From a virus (lineage: Duplodnaviria; Heunggongvirae; Uroviricota; Caudoviricetes), in the IMG/VR virus record IMGVR_UViG_2671180460_000002: a stretch of DNA of 36,986 bases, one strand, 5' to 3'. Each line of letters begins with the position of its first letter. The first letter of the stretch is position 1. Under the pieces are notes generated by a model. That model was given only the letters and a program-made list of their open reading frames with translations, did no database searches and was not told the DNA's origin. Made by a program: the position numbers and the translations under genes. This document shows positions 1-36,986 of this stretch, piece after piece.

Positions 1-1
1 C

Positions 2-184
2 CGCCAGCTTGAGTACAAGCAGCTCTGGCGTGGCGGTCAGGTGCTTGCTGTTCCGCCAGCGTACACAAGCCAGCGTTGCGCGTGCTGTGGTCATACAGCG
101 AAAGAATGTGGGGTAGTGATCAATTCTGGACTGAGTGAGAACAGCCTGGACGAGCCTATAAGCCTTGAGTGGCGCAGGATGTGA
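2..184 (+). pseudogene. IS200/IS605-family TnpB-like C-terminal fragment, apparently interrupted by the prophage left end
   Basis: Frame beginning at 2 reads ...PPAYTSQRCACCGHTAKE..., matching the YTSQ-C-CG zinc-finger region of TnpB/OrfB. After AKE (about nt 106) the expected second Cys pair is absent and the frame stops after 25 unrelated codons. ORF is open at the window edge. Confidence 0.5.
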
Positions 185-1241: not shown

Positions 1242-1478
1242 ATGATGGTTAGAAATGAAGTAATGAACCTGGACTGGCACCGCGAGTACATTGTCGCAGC
1301 TGTGCACACCAAAGGTTTTACATTGCGTGAACTGTCTGTTCGCGCTGGTCTAAAAAAAGACTCTTTAAAAAATGCATTGTATCGCTCATGCCCTAAATAT
1401 GAACGCATCATAGCCGATGCTATTGGTGTGGAACCTGCGGAGATCTGGCCAAGCCGGTATGCCAGTAAGGCGGCATAA
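1242..1478 (+). CDS. ner: Ner-like DNA-binding regulator
   Basis: Translation contains DWHREYIVAAV...IWPSRY, matching Mu Ner (DWHRADVIAG...IWPSRY). Stop overlaps the transposase start. Confidence 0.85.
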   Translation: MMVRNEVMNLDWHREYIVAAVHTKGFTLRELSVRAGLKKDSLKNALYRSCPKYERIIADAIGVEPAEIWPSRYASKAA

Positions 1479-3520
1479 TGTTTTATTCAGCCAATGAACT
1501 GGCCGGTCTTACTGGTTTGCCCGGTACAGTTCAGGGGGTGCGCTGGACGCTCAATCGGATCACAGAGACGCACCCGGAATGGAAGCGCAAGCGTGAAGGC
1601 ACCAAAGCATTCGAGTATCACATCGACTGCCTGCCCGCTGAAGCGCAGAAGGTTTTACGTAAGCGCCTGACTCATCAGGTCCTGGAAGATGCACAACTGC
1701 CCGCCGTGGTTGAGCAGAAGGCAGTTAAAAACGTCGCCGTTCGTGATGAACTGGAAGTGATGGTCAAATGCCCGGAACTGGCATTACGCGAAGTTCAGGC
1801 ACTGACCGACAAGCAAAAGGCCATCGCTGATGCGCGGATATTGCTGGCTACCGAAGTGCATAAACTGCGTGAATACGCAAGAATGTCCAGGACGGCAGCG
1901 ATAAAACACATTGTTGATGGTATCCGCCAGGAGGCTTTGCCCGAGCGCGTTATTGTGGCAGGTAATACCGCCAATGCCCGACAGGGTAAGCGAACTGGCG
2001 TCAGTACAGGGAGTTTACAGGAATGGTATTCCGCCTGGCTGATGGCGCGCGGTGATGCCAATCAGTTACTGGCGTTACTGGCTCCCGGTCATCATAAGGG
2101 AACACCGTGGGAGCAGGTTTGGTGGTTGAGCGATTTCTTTATGTTCTATCGCTCATGGAAGCGCCCGACCGTTGAATATGCGTATCGCGAGTTTTCAGCC
2201 TGGTGGCATGAAAAACACGCGAACGATGCGGGAATGCTGGCGGCACTGCCTTCAGTTCACGCAGTAAGACGGGTGTTAAGCAGCGTCCCGGTGATTGTTA
2301 AAGAGCGTTTCCGCTCCACCGGTTCAGCCTGGCGTTCGCTCAATCCCTTTGTGCGACGCGACTGGAGCACATTACCGGTTAATGCGGTATGGGTCGGGGA
2401 TGGTCACTGTATGAAAATGACCGCGTTTAACCCCCTGACCGGCAATATTTTCCGGCCAGAAGTGACGCTGGTTATGGATGCGGGGCAGCGCTTTGTTGTG
2501 GGCTGGTCGCTGTCCCTGTCGGAGAACGTGATAGCCGTTGCTGATGCGTTACGTTACGGCATGGCGCAGCACGGGATACCGCTGATTTATTACTCCGATA
2601 ACGGGGGCGGCGAAAAAAACCGGGTACTTGATGCCGATATTACCGGGATTCTGCCCCGTCTGGGTGTGGAACATCACACGGGGATACCAGGTAACCCACA
2701 GGGGCGCGGGGTGATTGAAAGGCTTAACAAGGAAATTCCCCGGGATGTGGCCCTGAGTTTCCGGACGTACTGCTCAAAGGGAGCAGACAAGGAAACCGTA
2801 ATGATGCAGCAACGGATTATGCAGTCAGCCATTAAGGCCACCCACAAAGGGAAAGAGCTGACAAAACGGCAGGTTAAGTCAAGGGATGAAATCCCCACCT
2901 TTGAGCAACTGATGGCAGCTATAGAGCTGGAGGTCAGACGCTATAACAACCGGCCACACAGCAGCCTTCCCCGCAAAGAGGATGGCGAATATTACAGTCC
3001 GGCAGCGTATCGCCGGAAACTGATAAAAGAACAGAATGTTGAAATTGATTTTCTGTCGCCGGAAGAGCTGCATGAAATGTTCAGACCGGAGGTGACGCGC
3101 AAAACATTTCGCGGGGAAATTCAGTTATTCAACAATATTTATTACTCGTATGAGCTGGCAGCAGAGCACGGAAATGAAGTCAGGGTTTGTTACGACATTC
3201 ACGACGCAAACAGCGTGATTGTCAGGCGGATGGACGGTTCTTATATCTGCGATGCCATCTGGAACGGTAATAAGGTTGATGCGTTCCCGAAAGCTGTTAT
3301 CGAACAGCAGCAGGAGAAACGCGCCAGAGGCCGCATTGCACGGGCCACGCAGAAAATCGAAGAGGCTAAACGCGAGCTTACCCCGGCTATTACGCAGAAG
3401 CCTGACTTTAATTTTGGATGTGGTCTGGAGCGTAAGGAGGAAAAGAAAAAAGAAGAACTTTATTTCTTTGCATCCGAGCGTGACCGCAATTTAAAGAAAG
3501 ACGGCACAAACAACCGTTAA
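1478..3520 (+). CDS. Mu-type DDE transposase (MuA-like)
   Basis: 680 aa, immediately after ner. N-terminal winged-helix-like region followed by a large catalytic core, size and position as for MuA (663 aa). Confidence 0.9.
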   Translation: MFYSANELAGLTGLPGTVQGVRWTLNRITETHPEWKRKREGTKAFEYHIDCLPAEAQKVLRKRLTHQVLEDAQLPAVVEQKAVKNVAVRDELEVMVKCPELALREVQALTDKQKAIADARILLATEVHKLREYARMSRTAAIKHIVDGIRQEALPERVIVAGNTANARQGKRTGVSTGSLQEWYSAWLMARGDANQLLALLAPGHHKGTPWEQVWWLSDFFMFYRSWKRPTVEYAYREFSAWWHEKHANDAGMLAALPSVHAVRRVLSSVPVIVKERFRSTGSAWRSLNPFVRRDWSTLPVNAVWVGDGHCMKMTAFNPLTGNIFRPEVTLVMDAGQRFVVGWSLSLSENVIAVADALRYGMAQHGIPLIYYSDNGGGEKNRVLDADITGILPRLGVEHHTGIPGNPQGRGVIERLNKEIPRDVALSFRTYCSKGADKETVMMQQRIMQSAIKATHKGKELTKRQVKSRDEIPTFEQLMAAIELEVRRYNNRPHSSLPRKEDGEYYSPAAYRRKLIKEQNVEIDFLSPEELHEMFRPEVTRKTFRGEIQLFNNIYYSYELAAEHGNEVRVCYDIHDANSVIVRRMDGSYICDAIWNGNKVDAFPKAVIEQQQEKRARGRIARATQKIEEAKRELTPAITQKPDFNFGCGLERKEEKKKEELYFFASERDRNLKKDGTNNR

Positions 3521-3537: not shown

Positions 3538-4431
3538 ATGAGTTTAATTACGCAATTAAATGACGTAATGGCCCGTCGCGGCTATACACAAACCCACGTT
3601 GCCCGTGCTATTGGTCGTAGCAGCGCCGTTATCAACCAGTATTTGCAGGGTAAATATCAGGGCGATATCACTGATATCGAAGAGCGAATTTCTGCCTTTG
3701 TCAGCCGTGAACGGGAAAAAGAAAACAACCGGCGTGTAAAAGCAAGTTTTGTGACTACAGGTATGGCCGCCAAAGGGTTGGAGGCACTGGCCTATGCTCA
3801 TCTGGAGTGTGAAATTAGCGTGTTGTATGGCGCGGCAGGTCTTGGCAAAACAATGATTTTGCGCGAATACGCCGCCAGAAACCGGGACGCAATACTGATT
3901 GAGGCTGACCCGGGCTATACAGCCAGGACACTGCTGGAGGAGTTGTGCCGCCAGTTGGGGGTAAAGGTTCGCGGCAATATTCACGAACTGATTAATGCCT
4001 GTGTACACGAATTGCGTGACTCCGGTCGCCTGCTGATGGTGGATGAAGCCGAACTGCTCCCCTATCGTGCGCTGGAAGTTCTGCGTCGTCTGCATGACAA
4101 GGCGGGCGTCGGTGTTGCCCTGGCTGGTATGCCGCGCCTGTTGATTAATCTTAAAGGCAATCGTGGGGAGTTCGCGCAGCTATACAGTCGGGTGGCTCTT
4201 TCGCTGGACCTCGGCGATACGCTGGCGCAGAAGGATTTCATCCAGATAGCCGCTGAACTGATGCCGGAAGCAGCAGCGCCTGAAATCTGTGAAGCACTTT
4301 ACACACGCTCACGGGGTAATGCCCGACGCCTGTTTAAACTTGTGCGTGGGGTCTACCGGATTTGTGATATCAGCGATGCCCCGGTCAGCGTGCAGGCTAT
4401 TGATGATTTCGCGGAAATGTTAATTCACTGA
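3538..4431 (+). CDS. MuB-like AAA+ ATPase, transposition target DNA activator
   Basis: 297 aa with Walker A GAAGLGKT and N-terminal HTH-like segment; directly downstream of the transposase as in Mu. Confidence 0.85.
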   Translation: MSLITQLNDVMARRGYTQTHVARAIGRSSAVINQYLQGKYQGDITDIEERISAFVSREREKENNRRVKASFVTTGMAAKGLEALAYAHLECEISVLYGAAGLGKTMILREYAARNRDAILIEADPGYTARTLLEELCRQLGVKVRGNIHELINACVHELRDSGRLLMVDEAELLPYRALEVLRRLHDKAGVGVALAGMPRLLINLKGNRGEFAQLYSRVALSLDLGDTLAQKDFIQIAAELMPEAAAPEICEALYTRSRGNARRLFKLVRGVYRICDISDAPVSVQAIDDFAEMLIH

Positions 4432-9330: not shown

Positions 9331-10014
9331 ATGATTTTTAATGATGAGATGGTCCGGGCCATCCTCGAAGGAAGGAAGACGCAGACTCGCCGACCTGTAA
9401 AAAATGTCAGGGCCGATAACTGCCTGGTTATCCGTAAACCGACAAAGAAACGCAATGGTGTCTATACCCACGTTATGGATGCACCTGAACATGGTTTATG
9501 CCCGTTCGGTAACGTTGGTGATCGCATATGGGTCCGTGAAGCGTGGGCGATATTAGGCAATGAGGATGGTTGCAGTGTGGACTGGAACGACAACCTTTGT
9601 CGTGGCGATGAGAAGAACGCAGCAAGGATTTATCGGGCCAGTTGTGAGCAAAAACCGGGGGATTATGGCTTATGGTCGATACCCGATGATGCCGACTGGA
9701 AGCCTCACACTGTGAATGAAAAGTTTGATGGTGGGTGGCGTCAATCAATTCACATGCCGCGCTGGGCTTCGCGTATTTTGCTGGAAATTACCGACGTGCG
9801 TGTGGAACGGCTGCATGACATGAGCGAGGCAGATGCTAAAGCGGAAGGTGTATCTCCGGCAACGTACAAAATTACGCCGCCGGAAGCTGTTTATCGCGTT
9901 GGTTTTGGTGATATCTGGCGCGGTATTTACGGGCAAGAGAACTGGCTATCTAACCCGTGGGTATGGGTAATTGAGTTTAAGCGTATTCAGGAGAAAACCA
10001 GTGAGCAAGATTGA
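9331..10014 (+). CDS. hypothetical protein with ASCH-like N-terminal motif
   Basis: MIFNDEMVRAILEGRKTQTRRP...WVREAW resembles ASCH (PUA-like) domain signatures; from memory. Confidence 0.45.
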   Translation: MIFNDEMVRAILEGRKTQTRRPVKNVRADNCLVIRKPTKKRNGVYTHVMDAPEHGLCPFGNVGDRIWVREAWAILGNEDGCSVDWNDNLCRGDEKNAARIYRASCEQKPGDYGLWSIPDDADWKPHTVNEKFDGGWRQSIHMPRWASRILLEITDVRVERLHDMSEADAKAEGVSPATYKITPPEAVYRVGFGDIWRGIYGQENWLSNPWVWVIEFKRIQEKTSEQD

Positions 10015-10594
10015 CTATCAGGCACTGCGAATGGCGGCAGAAAATGCAACACCAGGCGAATGGTGTACTGATGACTACCATGGGGTAATTGCCGATGCCG
10101 GACTGAACGCAAATTACTACATAGCATCATGCTCAGGACCAGATAATCGCTCCAATAAGCGATTCATAGCCGCAGCCAATCCGGCTGCTGTGCTGGTACT
10201 GCTGGATGAACTGGAGTATTACAAATCACGCGAAGAGCGGGTTACAAAGCTGGTTATGGATAACTCGACAAGTTGGGATGCTCTTTACAAGCAGCTGGAA
10301 GCCGCAGAGAAGCGCATAGCAGAACTGGAAGCACGGGAAACAAAACCAGCCAAAGGCGAAGTTCTTGTCGTTGTATCTGGTTTTACTGGTTGCGGAAAAA
10401 GCGCCATTGCCGGGGAAATAGAAATCGCGATGAAGGCTATTGGTGTACCGGTTAAGTGGACTAATGGCGATGCAGAAAAGCGCATGACTGGCGCTGACTG
10501 GCTGACAGCAATTGAGATGTACAAACCAACTGTGCGCATCGTGGAAGTTAATGTGCCACGCGTCGCTGGCATTCGCATCAAAGGAGGTGAGTAG
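10001..10594 (+). CDS. Ead/Ea22-like protein
   Basis: ...ATPGEWCTDDYHGV...NKRFIAAANPAAVLVLLDELE resembles the conserved N-terminal region of lambdoid Ea22-family proteins. GTG at 10001 with AGGAG upstream; alternative ATG at 10031. Confidence 0.5.
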   Translation: MSKIDYQALRMAAENATPGEWCTDDYHGVIADAGLNANYYIASCSGPDNRSNKRFIAAANPAAVLVLLDELEYYKSREERVTKLVMDNSTSWDALYKQLEAAEKRIAELEARETKPAKGEVLVVVSGFTGCGKSAIAGEIEIAMKAIGVPVKWTNGDAEKRMTGADWLTAIEMYKPTVRIVEVNVPRVAGIRIKGGE

Positions 10595-10767
10595 TGCGTG
10601 TGGCATGTATCGGCTTGTTACCGTACCCGACTCGTTTTTGGGCTTCTGCGCTAATTGCAAAGCCGTATGTCCTGATGGCTGACAGCATCATCCCTGCACC
10701 GAAACGCCGTACAGGCATTGCGGCGGCGAGACGAGCAGCAAAGAAACGCAGGAGAACAAAACGATGA
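10594..10767 (+). CDS. possible small basic protein (57 aa)
   Basis: GTG at 10594 with GGAGG 7 nt upstream; stop overlaps the next ATG. Weak. Confidence 0.2.
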   Translation: MRVACIGLLPYPTRFWASALIAKPYVLMADSIIPAPKRRTGIAAARRAAKKRRRTKR

Positions 10768-10946
10768 AAAACCGTAAGGCAAAAATTCTGTTAGCTCGCA
10801 GAAACGGTGTTGGGATCTGGCGATGGTTGAGGATTAGTAACAGACGAGTGAGGTTGACGGGGTGTTGCGGGGTGATGGGGCACAGCTGTTGCAAAAAGCC
10901 CAGCGCGGCGCAAAACCGCTGGAAGAATCACACTAACGCAAAGTAA
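10764..10946 (+). CDS. possible small Cys-rich protein
   Basis: 60-aa ORF, ATG overlapping the previous stop; weak. Confidence 0.2.
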   Translation: MKNRKAKILLARRNGVGIWRWLRISNRRVRLTGCCGVMGHSCCKKPSAAQNRWKNHTNAK

Positions 10947-10966
10947 TTAAATAATAACCAATAACA

Positions 10967-11010
10967 GACCAAAACATATGTTTTGGTCTGCCAAAAGTAG
11001 TGTTTTGGTC
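10967..11010. promoter_or_regulatory. twin palindromes GACCAAAACATATGTTTTGGTC and GCCAAAAGTAGTGTTTTGGTC
   Basis: Perfect 22-bp palindrome at 10967-10988 immediately followed by an imperfect copy, just upstream of the ATG at 11014. Confidence 0.5.
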
Positions 11011-11013
11011 ATT

Positions 11014-11292
11014 ATGAAGATTGAACAAATCGGAATGGCAGCCTTCCGGCAACAGGCTGAAAGCGGTGGTGTGGATGAGTTCGTCGTGCAGCGGTTCGGT
11101 GGTGTGTATCACCTCTTCGCTGTGAATCGCCGCGCCGGGGTGTCCTATTTTCTACAGGAACGCCGTGGCGATTACAAGACGTGGCTGTCTCTTGACCGTG
11201 CCGCCGCGTTCCTGTCGGGGATTGGTGTTTCTCGTTTTACCGTGCGTTTTGAGGATAACAAACATGCTGAAAAAGATGATCGGAGCCATTAA
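11014..11292 (+). CDS. hypothetical protein
   Basis: ATG at 11014 after the twin palindromes; the track start at 10978 lies inside the palindrome. 3' end overlaps the GemA-like gene in another frame. Confidence 0.35.
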   Translation: MKIEQIGMAAFRQQAESGGVDEFVVQRFGGVYHLFAVNRRAGVSYFLQERRGDYKTWLSLDRAAAFLSGIGVSRFTVRFEDNKHAEKDDRSH

Positions 11293-11677
11293 AGCCGGTC
11301 AGGCGTATCTGGGGTGGGATGATGCCCTTTATCGCCAGACACTGGCTCGCCTGACCGGTAAAACCAGCACCACACGCTGCAATCTCGATGAACTGCGCAT
11401 CATCCGGGAATACATGCACGAACAGGGATTTCCGCGCAAAGCGCCCGCCGGTAAAGGTCGCCGCCCCCGTGTTGCAATGAGCAGAAAATCGGTATTATCC
11501 AAAATTGAGGCGTTGCTGGCTGATGCCGGTCGTTCCTGGGCGTATACGGAAGGACTGGCATCTCACATGTATAAGCAACATGTGATCGAATGGCTGACAG
11601 ATGATCAACTGTTCGGGGTGATGGTGGCGCTGACAAAAGACGCCAGAAAACGAGCCAGAGCAGCACGTAAACAATAA
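11264..11677 (+). CDS. GemA-like protein (DUF1018-type)
   Basis: N-terminus ...AIKAGQAYLGWDDALYRQTLARLTGKTSTTRCNLDELRIIREYMHEQGF matches the GemA/gp16 pattern; position just upstream of the Mor/C gene as in Mu. Confidence 0.55.
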   Translation: MLKKMIGAIKAGQAYLGWDDALYRQTLARLTGKTSTTRCNLDELRIIREYMHEQGFPRKAPAGKGRRPRVAMSRKSVLSKIEALLADAGRSWAYTEGLASHMYKQHVIEWLTDDQLFGVMVALTKDARKRARAARKQ

Positions 11678-11682
11678 AGAAT

Positions 11683-11710
11683 CAGCCCCTGCCTTGCAGG
11701 GGCTTTTTTG
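11683..11710 (+). terminator. intrinsic terminator ending the early operon
   Basis: AGCCCCTGC-ctt-GCAGGGGCT stem-loop followed by TTTTTTG, 6 nt after the GemA-like stop. Confidence 0.7.
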
Positions 11711-11713
11711 TGG

Positions 11714-11743
11714 TCTGTACAGGCGATCATGTATGGCTATAAT
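11714..11743 (+). promoter_or_regulatory. putative sigma70-type promoter for the Mor/C-family gene
   Basis: Consensus -10 TATAAT at 11738-11743, 30 nt upstream of the start codon; -35 is weak (TGTACA). Confidence 0.4.
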
Positions 11744-11772: not shown

Positions 11773-12240
11773 ATGCAGACCTTCAGTGAAACAGATCTTC
11801 GCGATGCGCAGGCACTACTGCCCGATTCCGTGCAGCAACTGATTAGCGTGATTGGCTTTCCCGCTCTGACCCGGTTAATTCGTTCTTTTGGTGGTGTGAC
11901 GTTAAGCGGTAAAACCGGCGCACACACCGAACGCACCGGCGGTGTCCATGCCCTGTTACATGACGTGCTGACCGAAGACGAAATCAACAAACTGATCCGC
12001 TTTCTTGGCGGTGCGCCGTTTTATATTCCCCGTTGCGATCATGCGTTACGTGCCCTGCGTAACTCCCGTTTTATGGCTGATTTACAGCAACATATAAAAG
12101 GCGGATGCTCACACCGGCAGGCGCTGGCACTGCTTTGTCCACGTTACGGAATTTCAGACCGGTACGCATGGCAACTGATACACCGACGACAAAAACAGAT
12201 TTCGCTGAAGAGCCCCACCCAGGTGGGGCTTTTTGATTAA
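11773..12240 (+). CDS. Mor/C-family transcriptional activator (late gene activator)
   Basis: Contains the Mor-family ...GGAPFYIPR... segment followed by a C-terminal HTH-like region; located after the early terminator and before the lysis and structural genes. Confidence 0.8.
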   Translation: MQTFSETDLRDAQALLPDSVQQLISVIGFPALTRLIRSFGGVTLSGKTGAHTERTGGVHALLHDVLTEDEINKLIRFLGGAPFYIPRCDHALRALRNSRFMADLQQHIKGGCSHRQALALLCPRYGISDRYAWQLIHRRQKQISLKSPTQVGLFD

Positions 12241-36177: not shown

Positions 36178-36986
36178 ATGTCTGTATTAATTTCAGGTGC
36201 ACTTGTTAATGGCACTGGCGTTCCGATGGCGGAATGCAAAATTTATTTAGATGCACTGGTTAATACCAGTGAAGTGGTTATTGAATCATTTGCGGTTATT
36301 GAAACCGATGCGGCGGGACAGTATGCCTTTGAAGCGCAGACAGGAAAATATGCCGTTCATATAAAACAAAAGAACGGCCCGAAATGTTGCGTGGGGAATA
36401 TTGCTGTTTATGACGATTCAAAGCCCGGCACGCTGAACGACTTTCTGACCGCCCCCGATGAAGGCGACCTCAAACCCGACGTGGTAAAACGCTTTGAGGA
36501 AATGGTGGCACAGGCGCAGCAGAGCGCAGAAGCCGCCGCTGGCAGCAAACAACAGGCAGGACAACACGCCACTGATGCACAGCAGATTAAGGCCGACTGT
36601 CAGGCGCTGGCGAAAGACGTACAGCAGAAAGCCGACGCGGTTGCGGAGGGTAAACAACAGGCCGAAAATCTGGTCTCACAGGTTGAGAATGCCGCCGAGG
36701 AGGTAAAAAAGGACGCTGAAGCTGCTAAACAGGCCGCATCTGATGCAGAGCATGTCAGGGAGGATATTGACACCGCGTTATCTGCGACACTGAAAACGGC
36801 GAATCGTTTATCAGAGCTGGCTGATGAAGGTGAAGAGGCTCAGCAGGAATCCCGTGATAATCTTGGACTGAAAAGCGCAGCCACGATGACGCCACAGAGC
36901 GACATTCGCGACCGGACTGAAGGCCGTCTGGCGACACCTGGCGCATTTGGTTTTGGGCATATTTTTCTGCCCGCAGAGCGTATCCG
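36178..36986 (+). CDS. side tail fibre protein, lambda Stf-like N-terminal domain (3' partial, runs off window)
   Basis: MSVLISGALVNGTGVPMAECKIYL...GKYAVHIKQ...IAVYDDSKPGTLNDFL...PDVVKRFEEMV parallels the lambda Stf N-terminus. No stop in window, so absent from the supplied track. Confidence 0.8.
   Translation, partial: MSVLISGALVNGTGVPMAECKIYLDALVNTSEVVIESFAVIETDAAGQYAFEAQTGKYAVHIKQKNGPKCCVGNIAVYDDSKPGTLNDFLTAPDEGDLKPDVVKRFEEMVAQAQQSAEAAAGSKQQAGQHATDAQQIKADCQALAKDVQQKADAVAEGKQQAENLVSQVENAAEEVKKDAEAAKQAASDAEHVREDIDTALSATLKTANRLSELADEGEEAQQESRDNLGLKSAATMTPQSDIRDRTEGRLATPGAFGFGHIFLPAERI

What the first reader, a model, noticed from the sequence alone, without database searches (positions are those of the whole stretch)
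10950..11020. Twin CCAAAAC/GTTTTGG palindromes in the early region
A perfect 22-bp palindrome GACCAAAACATATGTTTTGGTC (10967-10988) is followed at once by an imperfect copy (10990-11010), ending 3 nt before the ATG at 11014. This looks like a tandem operator for a dimeric regulator, or paired RNA hairpins that modulate early-transcript read-through into the GemA and Mor/C module. The supplied ORF start at 10978 falls inside the palindrome and is probably not real.
Basis: seen in the sequence. Interest (0 to 1): 0.5.

Follow-up and report, generated by a model that had tools for sequence, protein, structure and literature searches.

The report
Conserved twin hairpin leader, Mu-like prophage
Two adjacent palindromes just before a small gene of unknown function in an E. 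coli Mu-like prophage are real and kept by selection; they most likely fold in the early mRNA and cover that gene's ribosome-binding region, but a tandem DNA operator is not excluded.

Summary
The first palindrome is a perfect 26-mer (10965-10990). An imperfect 18-20-mer follows (10991-11010) and ends 3 nt before the ATG at 11014.

The element is unique in the window and matches no Rfam family. It always accompanies one rare 92-aa gene (phrog_7844) in Enterobacterales Mu-like prophages, not gemA or mor.

Nine lineages, down to 62% protein identity, keep CCA-N12-TGG-N4-CCA-N12-TGG without any indel, 2-10 nt before the start codon.

In the E. coli group the stems vary far less than third codon positions (3/34 against 54/93 sites, p=5e-7). 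The loops drift at the neutral rate. Compensatory pair changes occur.

There is no U-tract and no positionally conserved promoter. The real early-operon terminator lies after gemA (11684-11704).

Best reading (about 0.45): an RNA leader whose two near-isoenergetic folds cover the weak ribosome-binding site. Main rival (about 0.3): two DNA dyads 22 bp apart bound by a dimeric protein. Supporting the rival, RNA structure is weak in divergent lineages and G.U shows no excess over A.C.

The ATG at 10978 is not a real start. Interest is moderate.

The parts
10965..10990 (+). Hairpin/palindrome 1: a perfect 26-bp palindrome. As RNA it forms an 11-bp stem with a 4-nt loop, -15 kcal/mol.
   Evidence: Stems are conserved and loops variable. 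There is a compensatory C-G to A-U change in E2348/69 and four double changes in the L041 group.
10990..11010 (+). Hairpin/palindrome 2: imperfect, with CCAAAA/TTTTGG arms and a 6-nt variable loop, -5.9 kcal/mol. Its 3' arm carries the only SD-like bases (GGU) and ends 3 nt before the start codon.
   Evidence: None of the 12 stem positions varies in 22 distinct E. coli-group sequences.
10969..11008 (+). 40-nt conserved core CCA-N12-TGG-N4-CCA-N12-TGG. It can be read as two 22-bp direct repeats or as four alternating half-sites. It can fold as twin hairpins (1:2 + 3:4) or as one nested hairpin (1:4 + 2:3).
   Evidence: The register is kept without indels in 9 lineages. Invariant columns are listed. 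The two folds are close in energy, -21.1 against about -20.9 kcal/mol.
10932..10964 (+). A+T-rich spacer between the end of the lambdoid-type module and the palindrome. It is about 55-60% alike among relatives that carry different upstream genes.
11014..11292 (+). 92-aa gene (phrog_7844, no Pfam family) that always accompanies the element. This is its true start codon. The gene overlaps the gemA start by 29 nt.
   Evidence: Variable sites at codon positions 1/2/3 number 14/8/54 of 93.
11264..11677 (+). gemA (Pfam GemA), the next gene in this prophage.
11684..11704 (+). Intrinsic terminator (9-bp G+C stem plus a T run) after gemA. This, not the palindrome, is the likely end of the early transcript.

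Best explanation
The 46-nt element is the structured leader of the 92-aa gene within the long rightward early mRNA of a Mu-like prophage.

When transcribed it folds in one of two ways. One is two adjacent stem-loops, 10965-10990 and 10990-11010. The other is a nearly isoenergetic single nested hairpin, in which segment 1 pairs with segment 4 and segment 2 with segment 3. In both folds the 3' segment GUUUUGGUC is base-paired. That segment holds the only Shine-Dalgarno-like bases and ends 3 nt before the AUG. The ribosome-binding region is therefore covered, and translation of the 92-aa gene is held down and insulated from whatever cargo gene lies upstream. The strong first hairpin may also act as a barrier or processing point that stabilises the distal part of the early transcript.

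Shown: the element exists, is unique, is under purifying selection on its arms, shows compensatory changes, keeps a fixed register next to the start codon, and is linked to this gene.

Inferred: that it acts as RNA rather than DNA, and that its effect is on translation or mRNA stability. What opens the structure is unknown. Candidates are an RNA-binding activator as in Mu com/mom, RNase III cleavage of the nested form, or temperature.
For: 1. Position. The element lies inside a one-directional operon and directly abuts the start codon. The gap between the element and the ATG is 5-6 nt in 7 of 9 lineages and 2 and 10 nt in the others.
2. Selection in the E. coli group (22 distinct sequences). 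Stems have 3/34 variable sites against 54/93 third-codon sites (Fisher 5e-7). Loops have 7/10, which matches the neutral rate (p=0.52). Stems against loops gives p=3e-4.
3. Stem changes that keep pairing. C10975-G10980 becomes A-U in E2348/69. A10968G gives G.U and occurs in two different flank backgrounds. C10975U gives U.G. The L041/L042 lineage keeps a stem of 11 positions (10 paired) with a 4-nt loop through four double changes. The covariation score is 0.161 against 0.106 in shuffles (3/500).
4. A 1-nt deletion in the centre of palindrome 1 is tolerated in L051. It is harmless to a loop but changes half-site spacing for a protein dimer.
5. Folding. Hairpin 1 is -15 kcal/mol (z -6.1). The whole element is -21.1 kcal/mol (z -5.7). 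In every predicted fold the 3' arm is paired.
6. No positionally conserved sigma-70 promoter lies upstream. Scores fall within the background except in L049.
7. In the non-E. coli lineages an SD-like GGA sits inside unit 2, so the element contains the ribosome-binding site.
8. In Mu, Pe drives one long early transcript through the semi-essential region (PMC3820752, PMC2582627).
Against: - Outside the E. coli and L041 lineages the predicted RNA structure is weak: z is -0.6 to -1.9. The RNAalifold consensus is only -4.7 kcal/mol with a slightly unfavourable covariation term. Yet CCA and TGG stay invariant at fixed spacing, which looks more like sequence-specific recognition than pairing.
- Cells with G.U (6) do not outnumber A.C (5) in the twin-hairpin model. 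There is therefore no strand-specific RNA signature.
- Compensatory changes in a palindrome can also arise at the DNA level.
- No transcript, structure-probing or expression data were available.
Confidence: 0.45

Rival explanations
1. The element is a tandem DNA operator. Two dyads of the form CCAAA-N8-TTTGG, with centres 22 bp (two helical turns) apart, would be bound cooperatively by a dimeric protein. That protein could be the product of the adjacent 92-aa gene, another phage regulator or a host regulator. Binding would control an internal promoter for the 92-aa gene and gemA, or act as a roadblock.
For: - The geometry is strictly conserved, with invariant CCA/TGG in 9 lineages, even where RNA pairing is only 3 bp.
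- There is no G.U over A.C bias.
- L049 has a good promoter candidate (TTAACC-16-TATATT, score 10.8 against a background 95th percentile of 8.3) whose -10 lies inside dyad 1.
- The most divergent relative, L044, has a TATAAT followed by different twin palindromes, as expected if operator and protein co-evolve.
- The Mu gem operon has been reported as constitutively expressed in lysogens (Paolozzi and Ghelardini 1992, cited in PMC3820752). That implies an internal promoter in Mu.
- Unrelated 22-bp iterons with the same CCAAA-N8-TTTGG layout exist (L064).
Against: - No promoter is conserved in position or sequence. The candidate -10 in dyad 1 loses its essential A in common E. coli-group variants such as CATGTG and CATGTT.
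- There is no second copy anywhere in the prophage.
- Compensatory changes flanking the core are not expected for bases that a protein does not read.
- The right half of dyad 2 is degenerate in most lineages.
- A 1-bp centre deletion is tolerated in L051, although that prophage looks degraded.
Confidence: 0.3
2. The element is an RNase III-type processing site. The nested fold is 11 bp, a 3x3 internal loop and 6 bp, about two helical turns in all. It resembles phage intercistronic RNase III signals. Cleavage would separate the variable cargo part of the early mRNA from the 92-aa/gemA part and could activate or stabilise the downstream message. This is a sub-variant of the RNA reading.
For: - The nested fold is the minimum-free-energy structure for the 52-62-nt element in the E. 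coli group, at -21.1 kcal/mol.
- RNAalifold picks the nested topology for the family.
- Equal 18-nt arms with no indels fit a long hairpin.
- The element sits at the border between variable and conserved modules.
Against: - The nested helix is poorly conserved: 73.5% of cells are paired against 71.1% in shuffles (41/500).
- In most lineages there are only 12-15 irregular pairs, which is short for RNase III.
- During transcription hairpin 1 (-15 kcal/mol) should form first and trap the twin fold (inference).
- No cleavage data exist.
Confidence: 0.12
3. The element is a mosaic-joint or DNA-structure element with no regulatory role. A short conserved palindrome would serve mainly as a recombination junction between exchangeable early-region modules, or persist through palindrome-correcting template switching.
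For: - At least four different upstream modules join the 95-99% identical downstream module. The sharp drop in identity falls at the left edge of the palindrome.
- The upstream module here is lambdoid.
Against: - Homology with lambdoid phages stops at about 10931, not at the palindrome.
- The arms are conserved well beyond the neutral rate, in lineages where synonymous sites are saturated, and at a fixed distance from the start codon. That points to a function tied to the gene.
- On general knowledge, 26 bp is far below the length at which palindromes are cleaved or unstable in E. coli.
Confidence: 0.08
4. The element is a transcription attenuator or terminator that controls read-through into gemA and mor.
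For: The hairpins are strong. The consensus scan flags a terminator-like site only on the minus strand.
Against: - No U-tract follows either hairpin on the + strand.
- The minus-strand tail is not conserved among relatives.
- A canonical terminator exists 670 nt downstream, after gemA.
- The element is linked to the 92-aa gene, not to gemA or mor.
Confidence: 0.04

Closest known systems
Mu com/mom translational control (Com-binding stem-loop next to the translation-inhibition stem that covers the mom start). This rests on my own knowledge of Hattman's and Kahmann's work, not on a test here.
   Same: It occurs in a Mu-type phage. Two adjacent stem-loops lie immediately 5' of a start codon, and the proximal one covers the ribosome-binding region.
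   Different: The gene, the sequence and the position in the genome differ (early region, not the right end). No Com-like zinc-finger protein was identified or tested. No activator is known here.
Four-segment translational attenuators such as the ermC leader (from my own knowledge)
   Same: There are four alternating complementary segments. They allow 1:2 + 3:4 or 2:3 pairings, and segment 4 carries the ribosome-binding site.
   Different: The E. coli group has no leader peptide ORF over segment 1. Upstream ORFs end 19-105 nt before the element. Only in the L041/L047 lineages does an upstream gene run through segments 1-3.
Tandem phage or antitoxin operators with an N8 spacer (for example HipB TATCC-N8-GGATA) and 22-bp iterons of theta replicons
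   Same: The dyads are 18 bp of the form 5-N8-5 and repeat every 22 bp. L064 shows real iterons with the same layout.
   Different: There are only two repeats, no rep gene, no conserved promoter and no recognisable DNA-binding regulator next to the element.
Phage intercistronic RNase III sites (T7 early mRNA, lambda N leader)
   Same: A long irregular hairpin with an internal loop lies between cistrons of a long early phage transcript.
   Different: It is shorter and A-U rich, poorly conserved as a long helix, and no cleavage has been shown.

Membership tests
Intrinsic (Rho-independent) terminator | A stable hairpin immediately followed by a U-tract on the transcribed strand | tested here: not met
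   On the + strand, hairpin 1 is followed by CCAAAAG and hairpin 2 by AUUAUGAAG. The scan lists the site only on the - strand, and that tail differs among relatives.
Promoter-operator unit (repressor-controlled sigma-70 promoter) | Recognisable -35/-10 hexamers at a conserved position overlapping or just upstream of the dyads | tested here: not met
   PWM scan of 12 lineages gave best scores of 2.8-9.0 at differing positions, against a background mean of 4.8 and 95th percentile of 8.3. Only L049 stands out, at 10.8.
Promoter-operator unit (repressor-controlled sigma-70 promoter) | A cognate DNA-binding regulator encoded nearby | tested here: inconclusive
   The adjacent 92-aa protein has no Pfam family. 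Its fold is closest to eL38 and the FtsH N-domain, not to helix-turn-helix proteins. Other phage and host regulators could not be tested.
Any Rfam RNA family | Score at or above the family gathering threshold | tested here: not met
   The best match was Plastid-psbA-2, 19.8 bits against a gathering threshold of 55.8, E 0.45.
Structured cis-regulatory mRNA leader (RBS-sequestering hairpin) | A helix that includes the SD or start region, on the sense strand, adjacent to the regulated start codon | tested here: met
   The 3' arm 11002-11010 is paired in all predicted folds and ends 3 nt before the AUG. The register to the ATG is conserved.
Structured cis-regulatory mRNA leader (RBS-sequestering hairpin) | Pairing maintained by covariation across relatives | tested here: inconclusive
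   Within the E. coli and L041 lineages it is maintained. Family-wide support is weak: alifold gives -4.7 kcal/mol, G.U equals A.C, and z is -0.6 to -1.9 in five lineages.
Structured cis-regulatory mRNA leader (RBS-sequestering hairpin) | A demonstrated effect on translation or mRNA level | not testable with these tools
   This needs reporter fusions or RNA probing.
Host repetitive extragenic palindromes (REP/BIME) | Many dispersed copies in the host chromosome | tested here: not met
   blastn of the 57-nt element against 5,426 complete E. coli genomes found it in 58 genomes, at most 4 places per genome. The 8 fetched (H41-H45, H109, H129) lie in Mu-like prophage regions; several genomes list 4 places, which I did not inspect. 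Annotations under all matches read 'hypothetical protein'.
Iteron origin | Three or more direct repeats next to a rep gene | tested here: not met
   There are only two 22-bp repeats. The neighbours are the 92-aa gene and gemA.
ParC partition-associated protein family (for the 92-aa protein) | NCBIfam NF041544 score at or above the cutoff | tested here: not met
   17.2 bits against a cutoff of 95.

The most novel reading that the evidence does not exclude
The element is an autogenous operator, on RNA or on DNA, for the product of the gene it precedes. The 92-aa phrog_7844 protein has an eL38-like alpha/beta fold and an almost invariant basic ERRGDYKTW loop. It would bind the CCA...UGG hairpins at its own start codon and set its own level, and through that the distal early operon. 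The near-isoenergetic twin and nested folds would act as a bistable switch. This would define a new small nucleic-acid-binding protein family together with its cognate operator in transposable phages. The different twin palindromes upstream of the most divergent family member (L044) would be the co-evolved counterpart.
Probability: 0.15. Interest if true: 0.6.

Novelty: new member of a known kind. Interest (0 to 1): 0.35.

Why it matters
The semi-essential early region of Mu-type phages is a poorly understood cargo zone. gemA itself has no known molecular mechanism (PMC12407980).

This element is a selected cis-element that marks the border between freely exchanged cargo genes and the conserved last genes of the early operon. 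It gives a concrete, mutable handle on how expression of that distal block is set independently of whatever is inserted upstream.

The practical value is modest:
- It corrects the gene start. Several public annotations use the ATG inside the palindrome, giving 104-aa products.
- It shows that the real terminator and a separate mor promoter lie further downstream.
- It provides a short, well-defined target for reporter and binding experiments.

Tried and rejected
- Rfam scan: nothing near threshold.
- Search for further copies of the motif in the window: none.
- Phage genome collection: the element and the 92-aa protein are absent from sequenced phages. Only the upstream lambdoid module matches.
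- GTDB species representatives and JGI metagenomes: only 2 and 7 loci, and most of the latter are near-identical E. coli-type sequences, so little extra covariation power.
- Loose pattern scan of IMG/VR: added only an unrelated iteron array.
- Strand test by counting G.U against A.C: 6 against 5, uninformative. My early impression that all stem changes were G.U-compatible did not survive the full count.
- Promoter search: no conserved promoter.
- Function of the 92-aa protein. There is no Pfam family. PHROG families have unknown function. The fold is closest to eL38 and the FtsH N-domain, at modest scores. BFVD hits are all uncharacterised. The ParC hit is far below its cutoff. The afdb50 library was unavailable.
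- Literature: nothing on this element.
- Rejected by reading the sequence against consensus sites recalled from memory: LexA, CRP, FNR, PdhR/FadR-type (TTGG-N5-CCAA against N4 here), the Mu strong gyrase site (wrong position, not palindromic) and MuA end sites.

Full report
**1. Context**

The window is an E. coli Mu-like (transposable) prophage. Its genes include MuA (1478-3520), MuB (3538-4431), GemA (11264-11677) and a Mor-family activator (11773-12240). All genes around the finding are on the + strand.

The stretch just upstream, about 9971-10931, is a lambdoid ead/Ea22-type module. It is 94.5% identical to phage phiV10 and is also found in Stx phages and P1-like plasmids. The finding therefore lies at the right-hand border of imported cargo within the semi-essential early region.

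In Mu itself this region is transcribed from Pe as one long early transcript (PMC3820752, PMC2582627).

**2. The observation**

The sequence is as described, and the element is larger than reported.
- The perfect palindrome extends to 26 bp, CAGACCAAAACAT|ATGTTTTGGTCTG, at 10965-10990.
- The second unit, CCAAAAGTAGTGTTTTGGTC (10991-11010), is an 80% direct copy at 22-bp spacing. It is itself an imperfect palindrome.
- The ATG at 11014 follows 3 nt later.

The element is not a chance feature. No shuffle gave a match. It is the longest hairpin-type inverted repeat in the 12-kb early region. The heptamer alone is not enriched, and there is no other CCAAA-N8-TTTGG site in the window.

**3. What the element travels with**

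In 5,426 complete E. coli genomes the 57-nt element occurs in 58 genomes. All eight fetched regions are Mu-like prophages, including two inserted in a plasmid and the E2348/69 prophage.

In IMG/VR, the contigs that carry the motif are essentially the same contigs that encode the 92-aa protein starting at 11014. That protein belongs to phrog_7844 and to no Pfam family. The family is rare: 13 clusters in 5.8 billion proteins, all from Enterobacterales.

The element stays with this gene in three situations:
- when other genes are inserted between it and gemA (L041, L047);
- when a terminase gene follows instead of gemA (L053);
- when the upstream module differs (at least four kinds).

Among close relatives, identity is 95-99% from the left edge of the palindrome rightwards. 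It is only about 55-60% in the 30-40 nt to the left. The element is therefore the left end of the conserved module.

**4. Conservation pattern**

Nine lineages were compared: the E. coli group, L040, L041/42, Intestinirhabdus L045, Leminorella L047, L049, L052 and L053. Protein identity falls to 62%.

All keep exactly CCA-N12-TGG-N4-CCA-N12-TGG with no indel. The spacer to the ATG, by contrast, varies from 2 to 10 nt. Eleven columns are invariant, while the unit interiors are at random-level identity. The 55%-identical relative L044/L046 lacks the motif. It has other twin palindromes (TTTGTTggtAACAAA and AAAAGATCTTTT) after a TATAAT.

Within the E. coli group there are 32 loci, 22 distinct sequences and 11 element variants. 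The counts of variable sites are:

| Region | Variable sites | Comparison |
|---|---|---|
| Stems | 3 of 34 | against third codon positions, Fisher 5e-7 |
| Third codon positions of the adjacent gene | 54 of 93 | reference (neutral rate) |
| Loops | 7 of 10 | against third codon positions, p=0.52; stems against loops, p=3e-4 |

The arms are therefore under purifying selection and the loops are free. The gene itself is clearly coding: variable sites at codon positions 1/2/3 number 14/8/54.

**5. Hairpin or operator?**

Evidence for a folded nucleic acid:
- E2348/69 replaces the closing C-G pair with A-U.
- A10968G gives G.U and occurs in two different flank backgrounds. C10975U gives U.G.
- The L041/L042 lineage has a stem of the same length (11 positions, 10 paired) with a 4-nt loop, differing through four double changes.
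- The twin-hairpin model beats column shuffles: 77.8% of cells are paired against 72.8% (1/500), and the covariation score is 0.161 against 0.106 (3/500). By the tool's own caveat this control is lenient for related sequences.
- A 1-nt deletion at the centre of palindrome 1 is tolerated in L051. That prophage looks degraded.

Evidence against a purely structural RNA reading:
- In five divergent lineages the predicted folds are no better than shuffles, with z between -0.6 and -1.9.
- The RNAalifold consensus is weak, -4.7 kcal/mol, with a covariation term of +0.4.
- G.U cells (6) do not exceed A.C cells (5).
- CCA and TGG remain invariant at fixed spacing even where they would close only 3-bp stems. 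That pattern suggests sequence-specific recognition by a protein on DNA or on RNA.
- The two dyad centres are 22 bp apart, two helical turns. This spacing is classical for cooperative operator binding.

**6. Transcription signals**

No U-tract follows either hairpin on the + strand. The consensus scan reports a terminator-like site only on the minus strand, and its tail is not conserved.

A canonical terminator lies after gemA at 11684-11704 and is conserved in 27 fetched loci. It is followed by a sigma-70-like TGTACA-16-TATAAT before mor. The element is therefore not the read-through control point for gemA and mor.

A PWM scan of 12 lineages found no promoter conserved in position. Only L049 has a strong candidate, with its -10 inside dyad 1. 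The corresponding hexamer in the E. coli group (TATGTT) loses its key A in common variants.

**7. RNA folds and the ribosome-binding site**

| RNA segment | Free energy (kcal/mol) | z-score |
|---|---|---|
| Hairpin 1 | -15.0 | -6.1 |
| Hairpin 2 | -5.9 | -4.6 |
| 52-nt element, nested structure (1:4 outer 11 bp, 3x3 internal loop, 2:3 inner 6 bp) | -21.1 | -5.7 |

The nested structure is practically isoenergetic with the sum of the two hairpins.

In every fold the segment GUUUUGGUC (11002-11010) is paired. The E. coli-group gene has no canonical SD. The only SD-like bases (GGU) are in that paired arm.

In the other lineages an SD-like GGA lies inside unit 2. In L041/L047 the upstream gene runs through segments 1-3 and stops 15 nt before the start. 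That arrangement would couple translation of the two genes. In the E. coli group, upstream ORFs stop 19-105 nt before the element, so no such coupling is expected.

**8. The neighbouring protein**

The AlphaFold model has pLDDT 80 and pTM 0.70. Its topology is b-a-b-b-b-a-b, with a nearly invariant basic ERRGDYKTW loop.

The protein is not a recognisable DNA-binding regulator. An RNA-binding role is conceivable but not shown.

**9. Verdict**

The element is real, selected, and tied to the start of the 92-aa gene.

I commit, at about 0.45, to a structured mRNA leader that covers the ribosome-binding region and insulates or throttles translation of this gene. It may also act as an mRNA stability or processing barrier. 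RNase III processing of the nested form is a sub-variant, at about 0.12.

The main rival, at about 0.3, is a tandem DNA operator. A neutral mosaic joint (0.08) and a transcription attenuator (0.04) are unlikely.

The ATG at 10978 is not a start codon.

The element matches no described family, but it belongs to a familiar class of cis-regulatory devices. Its closest analogue within Mu biology is the com/mom twin stem-loop translational control, a comparison that rests on my own knowledge. Interest is moderate.

Noticed in passing
window 9971-10931: A lambdoid ead/Ea22-type module sits inside the Mu-like early region. It comprises the Ea22-like 207-aa ORF plus two small ORFs (phrog_13831 and phrog_1380). 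It is 94.5% identical to phage phiV10 and is also present in Stx phages and P1-like plasmids. Homology to them ends at about 10931.
   Followed up: partly
window 11684-11743: A strong intrinsic terminator (AGCCCCTGC-ctt-GCAGGGGCT plus a T run) lies directly after gemA. It is followed by a near-consensus sigma-70 promoter-like site, TGTACA-16-TATAAT, 30 nt before mor. The terminator is conserved in 27 of the fetched loci. Here mor therefore looks like a separate transcription unit, unlike in Mu, where Mor is encoded on the early transcript.
   Followed up: partly
window 12208-12233: A second terminator-like hairpin (AAGAGCCCCACC..GGTGGGGCTTTT) overlaps the 3' end of mor.
   Followed up: no
window 11264-11292: The 92-aa ORF overlaps the gemA start by 29 nt. 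gemA has its own GAGGA Shine-Dalgarno inside the 3' end of the upstream ORF.
   Followed up: no
L044 2955-3000 (same contig as L046, Enterobacteriaceae bacterium B14): The most divergent family member (55% aa identity) lacks the CCA/TGG element. Instead it has a TATAAT followed by two other adjacent palindromes, TTTGTTggtAACAAA and AAAAGATCTTTT. The second contains a Dam GATC site.
   Followed up: partly
L064 5900-5990: An unrelated array of 22-bp iterons (gcaaCCAAAAAGTGGGGTTTGG, at least 4 copies) lies upstream of a 442-aa rep-like ORF. It matched the loose CCAAA-N8-TTTGG pattern by chance and has the same unit geometry as the element studied.
   Followed up: no
window 10978-11292, and clusters P0001/P0002: Public gene calls often start this gene at the ATG inside the palindrome, giving 104-aa products. 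One cluster of this kind has 337 member sequences. That start is not conserved, and the 92-aa form from 11014 is the conserved one.
   Followed up: yes
L051 and L050: Two relatives look degraded. In one, P0012 is a 144-aa fusion, the palindrome centre has a 1-nt deletion and no gemA is called. In the other, gemA is truncated to 63 aa.
   Followed up: no
window 1-120 and 36700-36986: The window does not begin or end at prophage ends. The left 100 nt or so look like flanking or other-element DNA, and the right end stops inside a tail-fibre-like gene.
   Followed up: no
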